From the IMG/VR virus record IMGVR_UViG_2645727640_000030: 8,025 nt of DNA; one strand, written 5' to 3'. The translations under genes and the position numbers were made by a program. The stretch comes from a virus. Taxonomy: Duplodnaviria; Heunggongvirae; Uroviricota; Caudoviricetes. Positions 584 to 7,928 of the stretch are shown in pieces. The first letter of the stretch is position 1. Every line of letters starts with the position of its first letter. A model generated the notes under the pieces. The model was not told the origin of the DNA, searched no databases, and saw only the letters and a program-made list of their open reading frames with translations.

Positions 584-3500
584 TCAGCTGATACTGATGC
601 CTGCGGTGGCTTTCTTCATCACCACAACCAGCAAATCGCTGATACTTGCTGTGGGATACCAGTTATTTACCAGCCATGCTGACACCGAAAACTCCAGCGT
701 CATGTGACCGTGACCGGCAGGCATATCAATAACACCACTGTAAATCAGCGTATTATCCAGCGCGGTACGGTTATAAATTTCAGCACCGTTTTTCCGCACT
801 ATCAGACGGCATGAGGAGTAAATATCAGTATGCTCTCTCTCATGCTTAGCGCCACTGAATGCCACCGCCGGAATAACAATTTGCCGGTCAAACGGCTGAT
901 CGTCATAAACCCTGACGGTAATGGTCCCTGATGGCCACCGCTCCGGTGCACGGGAGTCCCGGGGGAAAGCTTTGCCCACTGTTTTAACGAGATCGCCTTC
1001 AATCTGGTTGGCGGACAGTTTTCCCAGAACCCGACAGTTTTCGTTAATCGTGACGTTGTTGAGCGTCCCGGAGTTCGCATTCACGTTACCGCTGATATCG
1101 GCATTTTTCGCCGTCAGCCGCCCGTCCGGTGTCAGGGAAAATGCCGGAGGATTACCGCCGCTGGTAATGGTGGGAGCCGTCAGGTATTTCAGGAACACTT
1201 CGTTCATGAATATCTGATCGCCCTGACCAACAAACATCGGCTTTGTGTTGCCATTCGCAGGATTAATCATCGCAATCCGGTCAGCAGCCAGAAGCACCTG
1301 ACTCTGCATACCTGCTGGCGTATTCTCAATACCGGCTCCGATACCCGCAATATAAAGGCGTCCGTCCTGCATCTGCTGCAGTTTCACGGCCCACATGCTG
1401 TTCAGGTTATTATTTGTATCAACCTGAACTTTCTGTATCTGCTGGATTGCCGCACTCTGGTCTTCCAGTTTTTTATTGACGGTCTGCGTGATTTCATTGC
1501 TGACATTCGTAATGGACGTCCTGATTTCAGCCAGGTCCGGCGCAAGCTGACCGTTATCAATCTGCGTCCACAGCTCCTGGGCCAGATGTGTTTTCCCGAT
1601 TTCTCCTTTGAAAAAATCCAGGTAACCTTCCGCATCATCGCTCGCCCGACCGACAGCCTCCACGAATGCCGATTTGCCAACGGTGTTCACACTGCGAACG
1701 TAAAAATAATAATCATGGCCCGGTTTGATATTGATACTGGCGGCTATCCAGTACAGCGCCGTACCAAGATAACGCGCGCTGGTTTCAACCTGCCTGATAT
1801 CAGCAATCCGTTTTTCCGAGAACCAGAACTCAAACTGTACCGTCGGATCATAAACCGCAAAATGCGGCGTGGCGGTTATCTGAAAATAGCCCGGCGTCAG
1901 CTCAATCCGCGACGGTGCTGCCGGTGCGGCAATCCGGAACGATACCGATGCCGGATCGCCCTGCTGTCCCCACGCATTTACCGCCCGGACTGTCAGCCTG
2001 TAATTTCCCAGCGCCAGTTGCGTGAAGCGGTATGTGGTTTCCGTCGTCCGGGCCGTGCTGACCAGCCGCTCACTGCCGTCGTCCGCTGCCACGGTCAGGC
2101 GAAGCAGGAAGCTCACGCCCTTCACCACCTTCGGCGTGTCCCAGCGCGCCAGCACCTGATATTCCCCGCTGTCTGCGGTGACTTCTGCGGTCAGGTGCTG
2201 CACCGCTGGCGGCGTGACACCATTCACCGTGCCGCTCTGGTCGCCGTCAAAGTGCGCCCCGTTATCCACGATGGCCTCTTTTTCCGGTACATGCTGCACG
2301 GCGGTGATGGCATACGTGCCGTCATCGTTCTCACGGATACTCACACAGCGGAACAGGCGCTGGCGCAACGTCGGCAACTTCAGCCCCCACACGCTGTATT
2401 CAGCAACACCGTCAGGAACACGGCTCACTTTTACCTTCACGCCGTCGGTGACGGACTGAACCTCCACGCTGACCGGATTGCCACTTCCGTCAACCAGGCT
2501 TATCAGCGTGGTACCGGAGGATGGCAGCGTGATTTCACGGTCGAGCGTCAGCGTCCGGGTCTGGCTGTTCACCGCCAGCACGCGCCCGCCGGTGCTGATA
2601 CCGGCATAGTCATCATCACAGATTTCAATGACATCGCCCGGTACATGGCGAAGCCCTTCGGCACCCACGCTGAAGTCCACGGTCTGCGTTTCCAGCAGTT
2701 CTGTTTTAATCAGCCACAGCCCGGCGCGGTGCGCCTGCCCCCGGCTGGTACAGCCAAAGGCATCCATCTTCGTGACGTTACGACCGTAACGGGCAATGGC
2801 CTGCGTATCTTCAACAAGCTCTGTCGCCGTCTCCCAGCCGTTATTCGGGTCAATCCAGTTCACCTCAACGGCATTATGGCGGTCCTTCAGGGCGCTGAAG
2901 CTGTAGCGGAACGGCGCGCCATCATCCGGCATCACCACATTACTGCGGTTATAGGTCCACACCTTATCCGACGGCCGGTCCTGCACGAACGTCAGCGTCT
3001 GCCCGTTCCATACCGGCATACAGCGCATCGCCGAGCAGAAATCACTGAGCACATCCCACGCCTTGCGCTGTGTGGTCAGCCACGCATTACAGGTGATGCG
3101 CGGCTCCGTGCCACCAAAACCGTCCGGCACCGACTGGTCGCAGTACTGGCCGATGACATACAGCGCCCATTTATCCACATCCGCCGCACCAAGACGTCTC
3201 CCCATGCCGTAGCGCGGGTGGGTCAGCATATCCCACAGACACCAGGCCGGGTTGTTGCTGTATGCCGGTTTTAACGTTCCGTCCCAGATACCGCTGTATG
3301 TGCGTTTTTCCGGGTCGTAATTCGACGGCACCTGCAGAATGCGTCCGCGCAGATGATAATTACGGCTCACCTGCTGGCTGCCGAACTGCTCCGAATCCAC
3401 CTGTACGCCGACCAGTGCCGTGTTCGGGTAGCCCTGTTTCACATCGATGATTTCGGTGTATGACGACCAGAGCGTTTTGTTCTGCAGCTGGTCTGTGGTG

Positions 3501-4063
3501 CTGTCCGGCGTCATCCTGCGCATCCGGATATTAAACGGGCGCGGCGGCAGGCTACCCACCACCACCGAGGCCAGATACTGCGAGGTGGTTTTGCCCTTAA
3601 TGGTGATGTCTTTTTCCGTCACCCAGCCACCGTTACGCTGTATCTGAACCAGCAGGCGGACTTCCGACGGATTCCTGTCCCCCTTTGAGGTGGTTTCCAC
3701 CAGTGCCTGCACACCGAAGGTAAAGCGCAGACGGTCGATGTTTGCCGACGTGATGGTCCGGGTGATCGGCGTGTCATATTTCACTTCCGTACCCAGCACC
3801 GTCTCGGAGCCGGAGGATTCAAACCCCTCCGGCGGTGTCTGCTCCTGCTCACCGGAACGGAACACCACCGTGACACCGGAGATATTGGTATTCCCCTCAC
3901 TGTCCAGCACCGGCGTACTGTTCAGCAGCACGCTTTTTAATCCATCCACCGGACCTTCAACCGGCCCTTCGCTGATGGCATCGATCACACTCAGCAACTG
4001 CGTGGACTTCAGGTTGTCCTTCGCTTCGCGCGGGGTATGCCCCTTACTGCTGCCTTTACCCAT
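584..4063 (-). CDS. J: Host specificity protein J / tail tip central fibre (1159 aa)
   Basis: Complete ORF in the track. N-terminus [34 protein letters not shown] matches lambda gpJ as I recall it. GGAG sits 8 nt upstream of the ATG. Size is in the range of lambda J (1132 aa). Position after I and before lom is as in lambda. Confidence 0.95.
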
Positions 4064-4123: not shown

Positions 4124-4774
4124 TCAGCGACCAATCACCACAACCTGACCACCATCCCCTTCATCTGCCGTGCTGATCTCCTGAGAAACCACACGCGACC
4201 CCACGCGCATTTCACCGTACAGAACAGGCAGAACATTGCCCTGGGCAACCATGTTATCCAGTGAGGAGAAATAGGTGTTCTGCTTACCGTTATCCGTACT
4301 GGCTGCCGTACGGGGAGTCCTGGCTTTCGGTGCCAGCATCTGCGCCACACCGCCAAGGATCATACTGGCCCCCGCAGCATACATGCCCGATACAGCCGCA
4401 GCCCCCAGCCAGCCCACAGGGTTCCACCACGCCACCGCAATCAGCGCCGCACCAAGCACCACCTGAAACACACCGCCACTTTTAGCTCCCGCAAGACGCG
4501 GAACGATGTGGATCACGGCACCATTTGCCAGCGGCTCATTAAGACGGGCAGATAATTCGTTTTCGCCTGCATCACGCCCGGCAATGCGCACCTGATACCA
4601 GCCATCACTCAGTTTCTGACGAAACACCGGGAGCTGCATGGCCAGCGCCCGGATGGCTTCAGCCCCCGTTTTCACACGAAGGTCGATACGGCGACCAAAT
4701 CGTTGCAAATCCCCGTAAAGGCAGATGCGTGCCATGCCCGGTGACGCCAGAGGGAGTGTGTGCGTCGCTGCCAT
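4124..4774 (-). CDS. I: Tail tip assembly protein I (216 aa)
   Basis: Complete ORF. N-terminus MAATHTLPLASPGMARICLYGDLQRFGRRIDLRVKTGAEAIRAL and C-terminus ...VSQEISTADEGDGGQVVVIGR match lambda gpI as I recall it. Gly/Ala-rich hydrophobic central segment. The start lies 103 nt inside the K reading frame, as in lambda. AGAGG lies upstream of the ATG. Confidence 0.9.
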   Translation of the reverse strand: MAATHTLPLASPGMARICLYGDLQRFGRRIDLRVKTGAEAIRALAMQLPVFRQKLSDGWYQVRIAGRDAGENELSARLNEPLANGAVIHIVPRLAGAKSGGVFQVVLGAALIAVAWWNPVGWLGAAAVSGMYAAGASMILGGVAQMLAPKARTPRTAASTDNGKQNTYFSSLDNMVAQGNVLPVLYGEMRVGSRVVSQEISTADEGDGGQVVVIGR

Positions 4775-5415
4775 TTGTCGGTATACCTCTCTCGTTTGCT
4801 CAGTTGTTCAGGAATATGGTGCAGCAGCTCGCCGTCGCCACAGTAAATAGCGGCATGATTCGGCACCGATGAACCAAAACAGCACAGCAGCACATCGCCC
4901 GGCTGCGCCGCTGACAACGGCACCTGATACAGCCCCGTTGCCTCCAGATTATCCAGATAGAGATTCTGGCCGTTACGCCACCAGTCATCCTCACGATGAA
5001 AATCCGGCATCTCAATCCCCGCCAGATGGTAAGCGTCCCGGAACAGCGTGTAACAGTCCGTCACCCCGTGCTCAAAGCGCCGCCCGGTGAGATGCGGCAC
5101 ACAGCGGAACTTATGAATCGCCCCCCGGCAGACCAGCCACCACGGCAAATCACTCTGCACCTGCAGCCGCCGGTCGGCCTCACTCAGCCAGGGCAGACCA
5201 CCGGGGTGGCTGTGGACCAGCGCCACAATCTCACCCTGCATTTCTGCCTGCAGCCAGTCCTCCGGCGACATACGGAAATACGCCTCCGGCTCACCGGAGA
5301 TATTCACGCAGGGAAAATATCTTTCCCCCTCCGGCGTGCTCACCACGAAGCCGCACGACTCCGCTGGCGCACATCGCCGGGCGTGCGCCAGAATCGCTGA
5401 TTCTGTCTGTGTCAT
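4672..5415 (-). CDS. K: Tail tip assembly protein K, two-domain MPN/JAMM + NlpC/P60 protein (247 aa from first ATG; 199 aa if started at internal Met 5271)
   Basis: Complete ORF. JAMM signature H-x-H-x(7)-S-x(2)-D is present as HSHPGGLPWLSEAD (minus strand, 5214..5173). NlpC/P60-like Cys/His motifs present (GVTDCYTLF, NHAAIYCGDGELLHH). The ATG lies 5 nt after the L stop with no separate Shine-Dalgarno, suggesting translational coupling. Confidence 0.9.
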   Translation of the reverse strand: MTQTESAILAHARRCAPAESCGFVVSTPEGERYFPCVNISGEPEAYFRMSPEDWLQAEMQGEIVALVHSHPGGLPWLSEADRRLQVQSDLPWWLVCRGAIHKFRCVPHLTGRRFEHGVTDCYTLFRDAYHLAGIEMPDFHREDDWWRNGQNLYLDNLEATGLYQVPLSAAQPGDVLLCCFGSSVPNHAAIYCGDGELLHHIPEQLSKRERYTDKWQRRTHSLWRHRAWHASAFTGICNDLVAVSTFV

Positions 5416-5420
5416 GGGAT

Positions 5421-6119
5421 TTACTGCGAAAGTTTGTTAATGGAAAGGAAGCCGCCAAAGTTGCCGACGTTATTGCGGAACTTACAGCCACTCAGGCATT
5501 TGCTGCATTTATCCTTCGTGATATCGGACGTCGGCTGGTCATATTCATCCGCGACAGCCGGACCGTGATAACCGCACTCATCACCGCGATAGGTCCAGGT
5601 GCAGGTATTAGCCAGCATGATGCGGCCCGGAAAAACAGCGCCGTCCGTTTCCGTCGGCGTGGACAGTACAAAGGAGGCACTGACCGCGCTCAGTTCGCTG
5701 CACTGCTCAATGCGCCAGCGGCTGATTACCTCCTGCTCCGGATCGGCGTCACTGTTTCCGTTGACGAAGTTCACCGCATCCAGAAAACGGGCGTAAACCT
5801 TACGCCTGACCACCGTTCCGCCGACCAGACTCTGCAGGTCTTCCGCCATCCCGGTGACCATGCCGTGCAGATTAGAGACTTTCAGCGTTGGCCTTACACT
5901 GGCTCCTTTGCCGTTCATCTCAAATCCACTTCCCTGAATGGGATAGGCCTGATACTGCCGCCCCTGCCAGGTGACTGGTTCACCTTTTTCGTTCTGCTCA
6001 TTACAGAAGAAATAACGATCTCCGCCGACCTCTGTCAGATCAATTTCCCAGAGCACGATCAGCGCGGATTGCTCCGTTTTAGTGCACTCATTGAGTGTTT
6101 CCTGCTGTATATCCTGCAT
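5421..6119 (-). CDS. L: Tail tip protein L (232 aa) with C-terminal cysteine cluster
   Basis: Complete ORF, same length as lambda gpL. N-terminus MQDIQQETLNEC... Cys at residues 173, 182, 205, 208, 212 (CTWTYRGDEC...DKCSKCLSGC). The start ATG shares its A with the M stop (TGATG), as at the lambda M/L junction. Confidence 0.9.
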   Translation of the reverse strand: MQDIQQETLNECTKTEQSALIVLWEIDLTEVGGDRYFFCNEQNEKGEPVTWQGRQYQAYPIQGSGFEMNGKGASVRPTLKVSNLHGMVTGMAEDLQSLVGGTVVRRKVYARFLDAVNFVNGNSDADPEQEVISRWRIEQCSELSAVSASFVLSTPTETDGAVFPGRIMLANTCTWTYRGDECGYHGPAVADEYDQPTSDITKDKCSKCLSGCKFRNNVGNFGGFLSINKLSQ

Positions 6120-6475
6120 CAGTGAGTGACCTCTTCAAAGGTACAGTTAAAATCGGTATACATGGCATTATCCGAAATGCTCCACTCCCTGCAGACAACC
6201 CGGACAGTCCTGTTGTGTTTTGGCGGACGCCACAAAAAAGCACGAATCCCGGCATGACGGGATAAAAAACTGTCCAGCGCGGCACGGGAATATTCATCTG
6301 TGACACGAAATACCGGTTTAAACGTTTTCAGATCCGCATTCAGACCACCAGCCCGTCGCTGTTCATATCCGTCACCAAACTTTACCGTAATAACTGATGG
6401 CTTTCGTGTCGTCTCCATCCCCTCACGGGGGATCCAGTTAAAAACTTCAGGCTCAGGCACTGTACAATCCTCCAT
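6119..6475 (-). CDS. M: Minor tail protein M (phage minor tail protein family); start uncertain
   Basis: ORF in frame with stop at 6121..6119. Contains the motif region VKFGDGYEQRRAGGLNADLKT, resembling lambda gpM (RFGDGYSQRAPAGLNANLKT from memory). Candidate starts: TTG 6505 (track, 128 aa), ATG 6475 (118 aa, overlaps H by 23 nt), ATG 6418 (99 aa, GAGG 2 nt upstream, 34 nt after H stop). Lambda M is 109 aa. Confidence 0.75.
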   Translation of the reverse strand: MEDCTVPEPEVFNWIPREGMETTRKPSVITVKFGDGYEQRRAGGLNADLKTFKPVFRVTDEYSRAALDSFLSRHAGIRAFLWRPPKHNRTVRVVCREWSISDNAMYTDFNCTFEEVTH

Positions 6476-7928
6476 CCCGACGCGATGACTGCATAATTGA
6501 CACAACCCTGCTGTCGATCAGATCCACCAGTCCCCTGGCTGAGCGCGCATCTATCTCGCCATTGCTCCCTTGATTCTGAATGCTGATGTGATACACGGGA
6601 GAATAAACAACCCCCCCGCCACTATTCACATTGCCAATGGCTCTGACCCCAAGAGAGCCGTCCGCTGCCCGTGTCAGTGGCATGATAGCTTCAGGCCCGG
6701 CCTCGCCCATCAGCCCGGCACCTTTCGCAAAAGCAAAATACGTCGGTGTATCCACAATAGTGTTACTGTAAGCACTCAGATTTGCTGATGTGTAAACACC
6801 ACCTTTTGCGTTTGCCACCGCCCCCGAAATCCATCCGCCGACCGTACCAAGCCACCCTCCGGCACCGGAGAGTGACTTCAGTCCGTTAACAATGGCCGCA
6901 TTCATCAGAATTTTTGAAACTTCCTGGAGAATTGAACTCCCCCAGTTTCTCCAGTCCACAACATTTCCGGCCAGTGCATCGGAAATATTTGATACCAGTC
7001 CGTCCATAGTGGAAACGACAGCATCTGCCGCCTGCGAAGCATAATCGGTGGCACTGTCTGCCCAGTTGGTCAGCCCCTCCTGGAGTCCTGCATTCCAGTT
7101 ATTACGTAAAGCATCGGCCTTTGCATAATAATCCTGCTGATCGCTGAGACGCTCTTCCAGATATTTTTTATTCAGTTCTTTCTCCTGTTTCCACAGGGCT
7201 TCTTCAATTTCTCCGGCCTGATACTGTCTCAGCAGCTCGTTATTTTTCTGCTCAAACTCATGCCGGATACTCCACATTTCCTGGAGTCGTTCACGCATCC
7301 GTGAGCCTTCACCATATCCCAGTAACTGCGCGTCGTTAGACGCCCGGGTACTGGCATTACTGTCCGCCAGGCTGCTTTCATACGCAGCAAGCTGCTCACG
7401 AATCTTTTTCTGGTCGATGAGTGCTGCATTCTGCAAAAGCGTTTTTTTCTGCGCTTCTGACAGGGTTGATAATTCGCCCTGACTGACCTGATATTTCATC
7501 TTAGCCAGTTCAGTATTCTGCCCTGCCAGTGCTATTTGTTCTTTTTGCTGTTTAATCAGCCGTTTATAAATATCTTCTGTTTTTTCCGCTTCGGTCTTTT
7601 TATGCGCTTTGGGTTTATTTGCCTGGTTATTTCGCCAGGCATCCAGTGAGTTATTGATATAATTCTGTCTGGCTGTCTGATACGCCTCTCCCACAAAGCC
7701 GAGATCATCCGCAGCATAACCCAAGCGGGCACGCTCACGGGCTTCCCCCTTCAGGCGGGACAGAGCCAGTTCGCGCTCGCTGTTATTCAGTGCAGTCTGC
7801 TGTTTATCATCCAGGGTTGCCTGTGGTAGCCGTAACGGTACATTCACCAGCCCCTGTCGCTGCTGAAGTAATTCATTACCGAGCCCGAGAAGGCGATTAA
7901 ACTCGGTATGCTGCCCATTCATGATCAA
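6453..7928 (-). CDS. H: Tail tape measure protein (H-like), C-terminal ~490 aa; possibly 5'-truncated or interrupted
   Basis: ORF ends ...MQSSRRDGGLYSA, resembling the lambda gpH C-terminus (...RDGGLF...). Gly-rich segment (SLSGAGGWLGTVGGWISGAVANAKGG) and a W-containing block (NWNAGLQEGLTNWADSATDYASQAADAV) parallel the lambda H C-terminal region. Upstream part is K/E/Q-rich coiled-coil-like, as in tape measures. Sits directly upstream of M. The track start is TTG 7928; the first ATG is 7922. An in-frame TGA at 7973..7971 lies 15 codons upstream. Confidence 0.7.
   Translation of the reverse strand: MIMNGQHTEFNRLLGLGNELLQQRQGLVNVPLRLPQATLDDKQQTALNNSERELALSRLKGEARERARLGYAADDLGFVGEAYQTARQNYINNSLDAWRNNQANKPKAHKKTEAEKTEDIYKRLIKQQKEQIALAGQNTELAKMKYQVSQGELSTLSEAQKKTLLQNAALIDQKKIREQLAAYESSLADSNASTRASNDAQLLGYGEGSRMRERLQEMWSIRHEFEQKNNELLRQYQAGEIEEALWKQEKELNKKYLEERLSDQQDYYAKADALRNNWNAGLQEGLTNWADSATDYASQAADAVVSTMDGLVSNISDALAGNVVDWRNWGSSILQEVSKILMNAAIVNGLKSLSGAGGWLGTVGGWISGAVANAKGGVYTSANLSAYSNTIVDTPTYFAFAKGAGLMGEAGPEAIMPLTRAADGSLGVRAIGNVNSGGGVVYSPVYHISIQNQGSNGEIDARSARGLVDLIDSRVVSIMQSSRRDGGLYSA

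What the first reader, a model, noticed from the sequence alone, without database searches (positions are those of the whole stretch)
4672..5415. K carries an intact JAMM metalloprotease motif plus an NlpC/P60 peptidase domain; the full MPN domain needs the long start
The sequence shows H-x-H-x(7)-S-x(2)-D exactly (HSHPGGLPWLSEAD) and downstream Cys/His motifs typical of NlpC/P60 papain-like peptidases. The classical 199-aa K would begin at the internal Met at 5271 (MSPEDWLQAEMQGE...), removing the N-terminal part of the MPN fold, including the upstream acidic residue expected to complete the JAMM site. The ORF is open to an ATG 5 nt after the L stop, giving 247 aa. The enzymatic role of K in tail tip assembly is still poorly defined, so an intact catalytic motif is noteworthy.
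Basis: partly seen in the sequence, partly recalled or inferred. Interest (0 to 1): 0.4.

Follow-up and report, generated by a model that had tools for sequence, protein, structure and literature searches.

The report
Lambda-type tail-tip protein K, full length
This is the ordinary tail-tip assembly gene K of a lambda-like E. coli phage, a 247-residue protein with two conserved peptidase domains (JAMM/JAB plus NlpC/P60) described in 2004-2006; the shorter 199-residue textbook version of lambda K traces to one G missing from the 1982 lambda reference sequence.

Summary
Window 4672-5415 (minus strand) is a 247-codon ORF whose ATG lies 5 nt after the L stop. It contains HSHPGGLPWLSEAD (residues 68-81). 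Pfam places Prok-JAB at residues 3-98 (8e-14) and NlpC/P60 at 111-224 (6e-13).

The catalytic Glu (E19, in P-A-E-S-C-G) lies in the 48-residue N-terminal extension. The 199-aa form matches only positions 63-103 of the JAB profile and falls below Pfam's cut-off.

In 105 distant homologues, E19, H68, H70, S78, D81, C121, H187 and H199 are each kept in 96-102. Met49 is Met in only 14.

None of this is new. Lambda K's JAMM motif was listed in 2004. The JAB + NlpC/P60 architecture, with a ubiquitin-like gpI next door, was published in 2006. Most related phage records already annotate 247 aa.

One point adds to the finding. The classical 199-aa K exists because J02459/NC_001416 lacks one G (after position 14266; window 5281), which puts the N-terminus out of frame. 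Independently re-sequenced lambdas have that G, and no copy in 5,426 E. coli genomes or IMG/VR matches the minus-G reference version.

The substrate has not been shown experimentally. Cleavage of gpI's ubiquitin-like domain is the best inference.

The parts
4672..5415 (-). Gene K, full length (247 aa): tail-tip assembly protein with JAB/JAMM and NlpC/P60 peptidase domains
   Evidence: ORF listing and translation. Pfam domains. phrog_30 minor tail protein, E = 5.6e-163. 97.3% nt identity to lambda K. Annotated as a 744-nt CDS in mEp460, vB_EcoS-640R1 and the re-sequenced lambda PV340536.
5413..5415 (-). K start codon ATG, 5 nt downstream of the L stop (TAA 5421-5423). It has no Shine-Dalgarno sequence, so initiation is probably coupled to termination of L.
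   Evidence: Sequence. Best SD:anti-SD dG is +0.7 kcal/mol. The same tight L-K junction (-4 to +11 nt) occurs in all eight loci fetched for seven diverged homologues. Upstream context TAAATCCC-ATG is found in 60 of 82 related loci.
5122..5409 (-). JAB/MPN+ (JAMM) metallopeptidase domain, residues 3-98
   Evidence: Pfam PF14464, 8.3e-14, profile positions 3-103 of 114. Alignments to 2KKS and 2KCQ. Foldseek matches to 5LD9/5LDA, Rpn11 and CSN5.
5359..5361 (-). Codon of E19, the JAMM general-base Glu in the P-A-E-S-C-G motif. It lies inside the 48-residue N-terminal extension.
   Evidence: Aligned to the Glu of P-N-E-A-C-G in 2KKS. Glu in 100 of 105 distant homologues.
5173..5214 (-). H68-S-H70-x7-S78-x2-D81, the zinc-ligand part of the JAMM motif
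   Evidence: Regex match. Conservation in 105 distant homologues: H68 102, H70 101, S78 96 (plus 6 Thr), D81 102.
5269..5271 (-). Met49, the start of the classical 199-aa K. It is preceded by an SD-like GGAGG at 5283-5287.
   Evidence: Equals lambda 14276. SD:anti-SD dG is -9.5 kcal/mol, with 10 nt by the duplex scan (11 nt from the end of GGAGG) to the ATG. Met in only 14 of 105 distant homologues; Ile in 64.
5281..5281 (-). The G that is absent from the lambda reference J02459/NC_001416 (between reference positions 14266 and 14267). Its absence puts codons 1-45 out of frame with the rest of K in that record.
   Evidence: Alignment of window and lambda. Translation of the reference. The G is present in PV340536, LC730321, KT232076, OM418625-7, DE3 and others. 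No minus-G (>=99%) match among 7,256 places in 5,426 E. coli genomes. 0 versus at least 120 exact hits in IMG/VR.
4744..5085 (-). NlpC/P60 (C40) papain-like cysteine peptidase domain, residues 111-224, with C121 (5053-5055), H187 (4855-4857) and H199 (4819-4821)
   Evidence: Pfam PF00877, 5.8e-13, full profile 1-105. Alignment to RipC 8IDC. Foldseek matches to 4HPE, 9UBF and 8XUP. Conservation in 105 distant homologues: C121 100, H187 101, H199 102.
4124..4774 (-). Gene I, the predicted substrate. It encodes an N-terminal ubiquitin-like beta-grasp (residues 14-97) ending in invariant P92-x3-G96 and G101, then a Gly/Ala-rich hydrophobic linker, then the C-terminal plug domain. It overlaps the 3' end of K (4672-4774).
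   Evidence: Pfam Lambda_tail_I, residues 14-97. Alignment of 8 I proteins. SD before ATG 4774. Ubl assignment and predicted cleavage by K in Iyer et al. 2006. Only gpI 134/135-223 is seen in virions.
5421..6119 (-). Gene L (tail-tip hub protein), immediately upstream. K translation is probably coupled to it.
   Evidence: Pfam Phage_tail_L, 7e-100. Synteny H-M-L-K-I-J.

Best explanation
The feature is gene K of a lambdoid E. coli prophage or phage tail-tip cluster (H-M-L-K-I-J on the minus strand).

Shown:
- The gene encodes a 247-aa protein made of an N-terminal JAB/MPN+ zinc metallopeptidase domain (E19, H68, H70, S78, D81) and a C-terminal NlpC/P60 cysteine peptidase domain (C121, H187, H199).
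- Both catalytic sets are conserved across the family.
- The N-terminal 48 residues are part of the JAB fold and evolve as coding sequence.

Inferred with high confidence: translation starts at the ATG at 5415 by coupling to termination of L, 5 nt upstream. The 199-aa classical lambda K is an annotation consequence of one G missing from the 1982 reference sequence.

Inferred from published work on lambda and F-pyocin: K is a non-virion maturation factor required to build the tip complex.

Inferred mechanism (about 45% confidence): the JAB domain recognises the ubiquitin-like N-terminal domain of the neighbouring gene product I and cleaves after its conserved C-terminal glycine (P92-x3-G96). 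Other JAMM enzymes do this with Ubl substrates, for example Rpn11 and PfJAMM1-SAMP2. The cut would release the C-terminal portion of gpI, which becomes the plug inside the J/L tip.

The NlpC/P60 domain either makes a second cut in gpI or another tip protein, or has a separate amidase role. Its substrate is unknown.

The confidence of 0.85 applies to identity, architecture and the long start. The substrate step is rated separately at about 0.45.
For: Identity and architecture.

Catalytic conservation in 105 cluster representatives below 62% identity.

Long start:
- 82 of 82 related loci have an open 247-codon ORF.
- Codon-position pattern of variation is 3/3/15 in codons 1-48 and 24/19/70 in the rest.
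- Invariant residues I8, L9, A12, P17, E19, S20, C21, G22, G30, Y33, P35, N38, S40 and F47 across E. coli, Salmonella, Citrobacter and Edwardsiella.
- The 199-aa form drops below the Pfam JAB cut-off.
- The tight L-K junction is conserved in distant loci.

Reference artefact:
- 1-nt gap and the resulting frameshifted translation.
- Only J02459, NC_001416, OR474059 and OR974322 carry it.
- No minus-G (>=99%) match among 7,256 places in E. coli genomes; 0 versus at least 120 hits in IMG/VR.
- PV340536, a PaPa-type lambda that keeps the stf frameshift, differs from the reference at only 9 sites. Eight of them, including 14266insG, are shared with the independent LC730321.

Mechanism:
- Conserved K-I adjacency and the Ubl with a terminal Gly.
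- gpK was not found in virions by mass spectrometry.
- Only gpI 134/135-223 is modelled. The single gpI peptide at 9.87% coverage can only be the C-terminal 22-mer.
- In F-pyocin only PA0640 residues 127-200 are visible, and deleting PA0639 gives tip-less tubes.
- The closest fold matches include PfJAMM1 bound to the Ubl SAMP2, 5LDA.
Against: - No experiment shows peptidase activity for K or any cleavage of gpI. The missing N-terminal part of gpI in cryo-EM maps could simply be disordered.
- One mass-spectrometry peptide from a protein present at 3 copies per virion is weak evidence.
- Residues about 102-133 of gpI are also unseen, so the cut site is not defined.
- The long ATG has no Shine-Dalgarno sequence, whereas Met49 has a strong one (GGAGG, -9.5 kcal/mol). 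Some internal initiation in E. coli lambdoids cannot be excluded.
- The AF2 model is of only moderate confidence (pLDDT 74, pTM 0.52), and the relative position of the two domains is not reliable.
- A homologous NlpC/P60-only protein (RcGTA g14) degrades peptidoglycan. That points to a different role for the second domain.
Confidence: 0.85

Rival explanations
1. The real product is the short 199-aa protein initiated at Met49, or both isoforms are made, like the nested lambda genes C/Nu3. The upstream 48 codons would be translated little or not at all.
For: There is a strong SD-like GGAGG 10-11 nt upstream of Met49, and no SD before the long ATG. Gene callers frequently choose this start: 199-aa clusters P0060, P0061, P0063 and P0071 each have thousands of members. 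OM418625 annotates a 600-nt K with an RBS although the long ORF is open.
Against: Met49 is Met in only 14 of 105 distant homologues. Codons 1-48 are under protein-level purifying selection. E19 is conserved in 100 of 105. The short form lacks the first 62 positions of the JAB profile, that is helix 1 and the first two strands, which are modelled at pLDDT 83-92. The GGAGG is simply the codons for E-P-E-A, and those residues differ in most diverged homologues. A minor extra isoform in E. coli lambdoids is not excluded.
Confidence: 0.07
2. K, at least its NlpC/P60 domain, is a cell-wall (peptidoglycan) endopeptidase used during infection or lysis, as in RcGTA g14 and many phage tail lysins. On this view it is not a processing protease for tail proteins.
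For: NlpC/P60 enzymes are typically D,L-endopeptidases of peptidoglycan. The best NlpC/P60 fold matches are cell-wall hydrolases (4HPE, 9UBF, MepS). There is a weak match to TIGR02219 'phage cell wall peptidase'. RcGTA g14, in the same syntenic slot, degrades peptidoglycan and is needed for tail formation.
Against: gpK was not detected in lambda virions by mass spectrometry and is not seen in any lambda or F-pyocin map. Lambda virions are reported to contain no such enzyme. K has no signal peptide, so a cytoplasmic assembly factor would not reach the murein. The TIGR02219 score of 23.9 is far below its 81.9 cut-off. This rival does not explain the fused JAB domain or the conserved Ubl neighbour.
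Confidence: 0.15
3. K is a catalytically irrelevant chaperone or scaffold. The peptidase folds would serve only as binding modules, for example the MPN domain binding gpI's Ubl without cutting it.
For: Many MPN domains (MPN-minus) are non-catalytic binding modules. No activity has ever been reported for gpK. Recent structural papers call it an assembly or maturation factor of unknown function.
Against: All five JAMM residues and the Cys-His-His triad are retained in 96-102 of 105 representatives at roughly 35-60% identity. Pseudo-enzymes normally lose such residues.
Confidence: 0.1
4. The frameshift in the lambda reference is real, and lambda expresses full-length K by programmed -1 ribosomal frameshifting, as in G/GT.
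For: In NC_001416 the N-terminal 45 codons and the rest of K lie in two frames. A -1 slip near GAG-GCT-ATT would restore exactly the protein seen in this window. Lambda uses -1 frameshifting in G-T.
Against: There is no slippery X-XXY-YYZ heptamer at the site. All independent lambda re-sequencings and every other relative have the extra G and a single frame. In any case this does not apply to the window, where the ORF is continuous.
Confidence: 0.01

Closest known systems
Bacteriophage lambda tail-tip assembly protein K (gpK / TAPK; UniProt P03729, NP_040598; phrog_30)
   Same: Same gene: 97.3% nucleotide identity over 744 nt and the same position between L and I. It shares the JAMM motif listed for lambda K by Ambroggio et al. 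2004 and the JAB + NlpC/P60 architecture described by Iyer et al. 2006.
   Different: The reference lambda entry is 199 aa because one G is missing from J02459. The window, like nearly all relatives, encodes the uninterrupted 247-aa form. The surrounding phage is not lambda itself: J is 1159 aa rather than 1132, M is divergent, and the best match is vB_EcoS-640R1 at 97%.
Prokaryotic JAB/JAMM Ubl-processing peptidases (PfJAMM1-SAMP2, HvJAMM1 desampylase) and eukaryotic Rpn11/CSN5
   Same: E-x(n)-H-x-H-x7-S-x2-D motif and MPN fold. Like these enzymes, it is genomically paired with a beta-grasp Ubl that ends in a conserved Gly.
   Different: There are no E1/E2-like or sulfur-transfer genes nearby. 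The Ubl is the N-terminal domain of a structural tail protein rather than a free modifier. The JAB domain is fused to an NlpC/P60 domain. The NCBIfam desampylase score of 29.9 is far below its 130-bit cut-off.
RcGTA g14 / TIGR02219 phage NlpC/P60 cell-wall peptidase
   Same: An NlpC/P60 protein encoded between the L-like hub gene and the J-like gene, and required for tail formation.
   Different: g14 is 150 aa with no JAB domain. It degrades peptidoglycan and may sit inside the tail, whereas K is not found in virions. The TIGR02219 score is below its cut-off.
F-type pyocin PA0639 / PyoF8
   Same: It is the gpK counterpart in a lambda-like tail cluster. It is absent from particles, and its deletion gives tip-less tubes. 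The neighbouring PA0640 (gpI homologue) is visible only from residue 127.
   Different: It belongs to a tailocin rather than a phage. Its domain content was not examined here.

Membership tests
JAB/MPN+ (JAMM) metallopeptidases, Pfam PF14464 Prok-JAB | Profile match above the curated threshold, covering the whole domain | tested here: met
   51.9 bits against a cut-off of 25; residues 3-98 on profile positions 3-103 of 114. The 199-aa form scores only 22.9 bits on profile positions 63-103.
JAB/MPN+ (JAMM) metallopeptidases, Pfam PF14464 Prok-JAB | Complete E-x(n)-H-x-H-x7-S-x2-D motif at the catalytic positions | tested here: met
   E19, H68, H70, S78 and D81. They align with the corresponding motifs in 2KKS and 2KCQ and are conserved in 96-102 of 105 distant homologues.
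JAB/MPN+ (JAMM) metallopeptidases, Pfam PF14464 Prok-JAB | MPN fold | tested here: met
   The AF2 model (residues 1-40 at pLDDT 83-92) matches 5LD9/5LDA at TM 0.59-0.60 (normalised to the target) and rmsd 3.2-3.4 over about 110 columns. It also matches Rpn11, CSN5 and AMSH. Overall model confidence is moderate.
JAB/MPN+ (JAMM) metallopeptidases, Pfam PF14464 Prok-JAB | Zinc binding and (iso)peptidase activity | not testable with these tools
   This needs biochemistry. No report was found in the searched literature.
NlpC/P60 (MEROPS C40), Pfam PF00877 | Profile match above threshold over the full domain | tested here: met
   49.2 bits against a cut-off of 23; profile positions 1-105 of 105 on residues 111-224.
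NlpC/P60 (MEROPS C40), Pfam PF00877 | Catalytic Cys, His and a third polar residue (His) in the conserved order | tested here: met
   C121 (in D-C-Y), H187 (in N-H-A-A-I-Y) and H199 (in L-L-H-H). H187 and H199 align with the corresponding His residues of RipC 8IDC. Conserved in 100, 101 and 102 of 105 distant homologues.
NlpC/P60 (MEROPS C40), Pfam PF00877 | Peptidoglycan or other amidase activity | not testable with these tools
The substrate is unknown.
Lambda-type tail-tip assembly protein K (TAPK) | Position between L and I/J in an H-M-L-K-I-J tail-tip cluster, plus sequence similarity to lambda K | tested here: met
   Pfam identities of the neighbouring genes. 97.3% nt identity to lambda K. 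The same order is found in all eight loci fetched for seven diverged homologues; two short contigs hold only part of the cluster.
Lambda-type tail-tip assembly protein K (TAPK) | Required for tail-tip assembly but absent from the virion | not testable with these tools
   Known for lambda and F-pyocin from the literature only.
TIGR02219 phage_NlpC_fam (RcGTA g14-like cell-wall peptidase) | Score above the NCBIfam cut-off | tested here: not met
   23.9 bits against a cut-off of 81.9.
NF041370 desampylase (HvJAMM1-type) | Score above the NCBIfam cut-off | tested here: not met
   29.9 bits against a cut-off of 130. It is related at the superfamily level only.

The most novel reading that the evidence does not exclude
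K may be the missing protease for more than one tail maturation event. The JAB domain would remove gpI's ubiquitin-like domain. [quoted passage not shown] A weaker variant: E. coli lambdoids make two K isoforms (247 aa and a Met49-initiated 199 aa) with different activities.
Probability: 0.1. Interest if true: 0.6.

Novelty: already known. Interest (0 to 1): 0.2.

Why it matters
For this window it matters little. It is a correctly readable, ordinary lambdoid K gene whose domain content is in Pfam and NCBI annotation and was published 20 years ago.

Two practical points do follow.

First, anyone working from the canonical lambda record (NC_001416, NP_040598, UniProt P03729; 199 aa) is working with a K that lacks the first 48 residues, including the catalytic Glu of the JAMM site. 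That includes expression constructs, structure prediction and searches of mass-spectrometry databases. The 2023 virion mass-spectrometry search that did not find gpK presumably used that sequence. Re-sequenced lambdas show the true gene is 247 codons.

Second, the 2006 prediction that K's JAB domain cuts the ubiquitin-like domain off gpI now fits the cryo-EM observation that only the C-terminal ~90 residues of gpI (residues 134/135-223), and of its pyocin homologue (127-200), are seen in particles. Recent structural papers still list gpK's function as unknown. The experiment is simple and has not been reported in the literature I could search.

Tried and rejected
1. Programmed frameshift in lambda K. 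Rejected: there is no slippery site, and every other sequence carries the extra G.

2. Something else on either strand of 4400-5700. There are no Rfam families in the whole window, no promoter-like sites, and terminator-like sites at chance level. The 134-aa antisense ORF at 4996-5400 has no Pfam match.

3. Literature on the 14266 discrepancy, and ribosome profiling of lambda. Searches and look-ups found no statement about it. Casjens & Hendrix 2015 and Liu et al. 2013 are not held. From memory only, and not verified here: supplier documentation for commercial lambda cI857 Sam7 DNA lists '138 delG, 14266 insG' relative to J02459. That would match.

4. Is the reference gap a real allele? OR974322 (chicken cloacal swab, 48,496 bp) and OR474059 also carry it. 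OR974322 also keeps the reference G at position 138, and its L, K and I CDS coordinates are identical to the reference's. These facts suggest a reference-guided assembly, but I did not compare the whole records.

5. Co-folding K with gpI to test docking of the Ubl tail into the JAB site. Not done: the structure tool returns no coordinates or contacts, so the result could not be read.

6. Close IMG/VR relatives were too similar for residue-level conservation. The 50%-cluster representative search was used instead.
Full report
**What is in the window**

The 8-kb window carries the distal part of a lambda-type tail gene cluster on the minus strand:
- the 3' part of the tape-measure gene H;
- M (Phage_min_tail);
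- L (5421-6119; Phage_tail_L, 7e-100);
- the ORF in question (4672-5415);
- I (4124-4774; Lambda_tail_I);
- J (584-4063).

The closest phage records are E. coli lambdoids: vB_EcoS-640R1 at 97%, mEp460 and cdtI at 93-95%. The K ORF is 97.3% identical in nucleotides to lambda K.

**Checking the observation**

The ORF is 744 nt, or 247 codons. Its ATG is at 5413-5415 and the L stop TAA is at 5421-5423, so five bases lie between them. Met49 is at 5269-5271. HSHPGGLPWLSEAD occupies residues 68-81. The H-x-H-x7-S-x2-D pattern appears in 0.2% of shuffles of the same protein.

The profile evidence is much stronger than the motif alone:
- Pfam Prok-JAB scores 51.9 bits (cut-off 25) over residues 3-98.
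- NLPC_P60 scores 49.2 bits (cut-off 23) over residues 111-224.
- Two solved prokaryotic MPN proteins (2KKS, 2KCQ) align P-x-E-x-C-G with K's P17-A-E19-S-C-G, and 'HSHP' with H68-S-H70-P.
- An AlphaFold2 model built on 21 homologues has mean pLDDT 74, with residues 1-40 at 83-92.
- Foldseek matches that model to P. furiosus JAMM1 alone and bound to the ubiquitin-like SAMP2 (5LD9/5LDA; target-normalised TM 0.59-0.60), and to Rpn11, CSN5 and AMSH. For the second domain it matches the NlpC/P60 hydrolases 4HPE, 9UBF, 4FDY and MepS.

**Are the residues catalytic-grade conserved, and is the long start the real one?**

I searched 1.84 billion cluster representatives. There were 2,767 relatives at E <= 0.001. 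I aligned the 105 full-length ones that are below 62% identity to K.

| Residue | Kept in (of 105) |
|---|---|
| E19 | 100 |
| H68 | 102 |
| H70 | 101 |
| S78 | 96 (plus 6 Thr) |
| D81 | 102 |
| C121 | 100 |
| H187 | 101 |
| H199 | 102 |
| Met49 | 14 (Ile in 64) |

Most of these proteins begin 6-14 residues before the column of K residue I8. Full-length two-domain proteins of about 240 aa are therefore the family norm.

Further points support the long start:
- Among E. coli, Salmonella, Citrobacter and Edwardsiella homologues, the extension contains 14 invariant positions.
- In 83 related DNA sequences (73 unique), variable sites in codons 1-48 fall 3/3/15 by codon position, against 24/19/70 in the rest of the gene. 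This is the signature of translated sequence.
- All 82 related loci other than the lambda reference have an uninterrupted 247-codon ORF starting at the same ATG.
- In all eight loci fetched for seven diverged homologues (70% down to 34% identity), K starts between -4 and +11 nt of the L stop.
- Cutting the protein at Met49 leaves a Prok-JAB match of only 22.9 bits on profile positions 63-103. That is below the cut-off, which is why 199-aa database entries carry only the NlpC/P60 label.

One point argues the other way. The long ATG has no Shine-Dalgarno sequence (best dG +0.7 kcal/mol). Met49 is preceded by GGAGG (-9.5 kcal/mol; 10 nt by the duplex scan, 11 nt from the end of GGAGG). That GGAGG is simply the codons for E-P-E-A. 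The most likely initiation mechanism for the long form is termination-reinitiation coupling with L, which I infer but did not test. A minor internal isoform in E. coli lambdoids cannot be excluded.

**Why the classical K is 199 aa**

Aligning the window with NC_001416 shows that the reference lacks one base. The window reads GGAGGCGTATTTCC and lambda reads GGAGGC-TATTTCC, ten bases upstream of the annotated K ATG.

In the reference, the same 45 N-terminal codons (MTQTESAILAHARRCAPAESCGFVVSTPEGERYFPCVNISGEPEA) are present directly after L. They then run out of frame into a 76-codon dead end.

An 81-nt probe across the site finds the minus-G version in only four of 122 matching phage records: J02459, its RefSeq copy, OR474059 and OR974322. 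Many lambda derivatives have the G: KT232076, LC730321, PV340536, lambda imm21, imm434 and h434 imm21, DE3, HK629, HK630 and others. None of 7,256 matching places in 5,426 complete E. coli genomes matches the minus-G reference probe at >=99%. IMG/VR holds 0 exact copies of the minus-G 28-mer and at least 120 of the plus-G 29-mer.

PV340536 is a lambda prophage in MG1655 that still carries the PaPa stf frameshift, so it belongs to the same laboratory lineage as the reference. It differs from NC_001416 at only nine positions. Eight of these, including 138delG and 14266insG, are shared with the independently sequenced stf+ LC730321.

The simplest reading is a base-calling error in the 1982 sequence. 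A private mutation of the sequenced stock is a remote alternative. Either way, the short K is not a competing start choice on this window's sequence.

Annotation practice remains mixed:
- 744 nt in mEp460, 640R1 and PV340536;
- 600 nt with an annotated RBS in lambda imm21;
- 636 nt in KT232076.

**What is already known**

Ambroggio et al. 2004 listed lambda K among proteins with a JAMM motif of unknown function. Iyer, Burroughs and Aravind 2006 made three points:
- They described TAPK as JAB + NlpC/P60.
- They recognised the N-terminal domain of the neighbouring TAPI as a ThiS/MoaD-like ubiquitin fold with a conserved C-terminal glycine.
- They proposed that the JAB domain releases that Ubl by cutting at the glycine, with the NlpC/P60 domain possibly also processing it.

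**Mechanism**

No activity has been demonstrated for K. Recent structural papers still say its location or function is unknown. The circumstantial case for the 2006 model has nevertheless become stronger:
- gpK is not detected in lambda virions by mass spectrometry and is not resolved in any map.
- Only gpI residues 134/135-223 are modelled, as a trimeric plug under the C-terminus of gpH.
- The virion mass-spectrometry table lists a single gpI peptide at 9.87% coverage. By arithmetic this can only be the 22-residue C-terminal tryptic peptide 202-223, although the Ubl region contains several good tryptic peptides.
- In F-pyocin only residues 127-200 of the gpI homologue are seen, and the authors raise proteolysis as one explanation. 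Deletion of the K homologue gives tip-less tubes.
- My alignment of eight I proteins down to 27% identity shows invariant P92, G96 and G101 at the end of the Ubl, followed by a Gly/Ala-rich hydrophobic linker.

I therefore rate 'the JAB domain cuts gpI after the Ubl glycine' as the best single mechanism, at about 45%.

The role of the NlpC/P60 domain is open. A peptidoglycan-hydrolase role, as shown for RcGTA g14 in the same syntenic slot, is disfavoured for a cytoplasmic, non-virion protein but is not excluded. A purely non-catalytic chaperone role is disfavoured by the conservation of both active sites.

**Verdict**

- The long start is very probably right.
- The biology is already known at the level of prediction and unknown at the level of experiment.
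- Nothing in this window departs from the family norm.

Noticed in passing
window 4672-4774 (K/I overlap); I candidate starts at 4774, 4735 and about 4675: Related records (mEp460, 640R1, PV340536) start gene I at the GTG overlapping the K stop (182-190 aa). That cuts off the first two strands of the ubiquitin-like domain: Pfam Lambda_tail_I then matches only profile positions 26-83 of 83. Distant I homologues mostly begin at the equivalent of Met14 (M-x-x-I-x-L-Y-G-x-L-K-x-F-G), and ATG 4774 has a good SD. So I probably starts at 4774 (or 4735) and overlaps K by 103 (or 64) nt in another frame.
   Followed up: partly
L089 (NC_001416) positions 138, 14266, 20661, 22444, 25662, 31016, 34934, 45618: Two independent lambda re-sequencings (PV340536, PaPa-type; LC730321, stf+) share eight differences from the 1982 reference, including 138delG and 14266insG. 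These look like reference errors rather than strain variation. Only the K site was examined for its consequences.
   Followed up: partly
L086/L098 (OR974322.1) and OR474059.1: Two recent 'lambda' records carry the minus-G reference version of K. OR974322 comes from chicken cloacal swabs, also keeps the reference G at position 138, and its L, K and I CDS coordinates are identical to the reference's. This suggests a reference-guided assembly of control DNA rather than an independent isolate. The whole records were not compared.
   Followed up: no
proteins P0060, P0061, P0063, P0071 (199 aa): Large protein clusters (1,684-4,936 members each) hold the Met49-initiated 199-aa form and are labelled NlpC/P60 only. 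Automatic gene callers evidently often pick the internal start, probably because of the GGAGG upstream, even where the long ORF is presumably open. As a result the JAB domain is under-annotated in databases.
   Followed up: partly
proteins P0011, P0021, P0032, P0043 (L-K fusions) and P0015, P0030, P0076, P0117 (K-I fusions); phrog_28576, phrog_35166: Database proteins and two PHROG families join L to K, or K (or only its JAB domain) to I, in one polypeptide. Most have 1-2 members (P0021 has 11) and may be frameshift or assembly artefacts. Iyer et al. 2006 also mention a JAB-TAPI fusion in an E. coli prophage.
   Followed up: no
window about 5481-5606 (minus strand), C-terminal part of L: A cysteine cluster in L (C-T-W-T-Y-R-G-D-E-C-G ... 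C-S-K-C-L-S-G-C) corresponds to the iron-sulfur site described for lambda gpL.
   Followed up: no
window 6119-6505 (minus strand), gene M: The mechanical ORF for M starts at a TTG (128 aa), but the closest phage record annotates 342 nt (113 aa). This M also differs clearly from lambda M (109 aa), so the cluster is mosaic relative to lambda.
   Followed up: no
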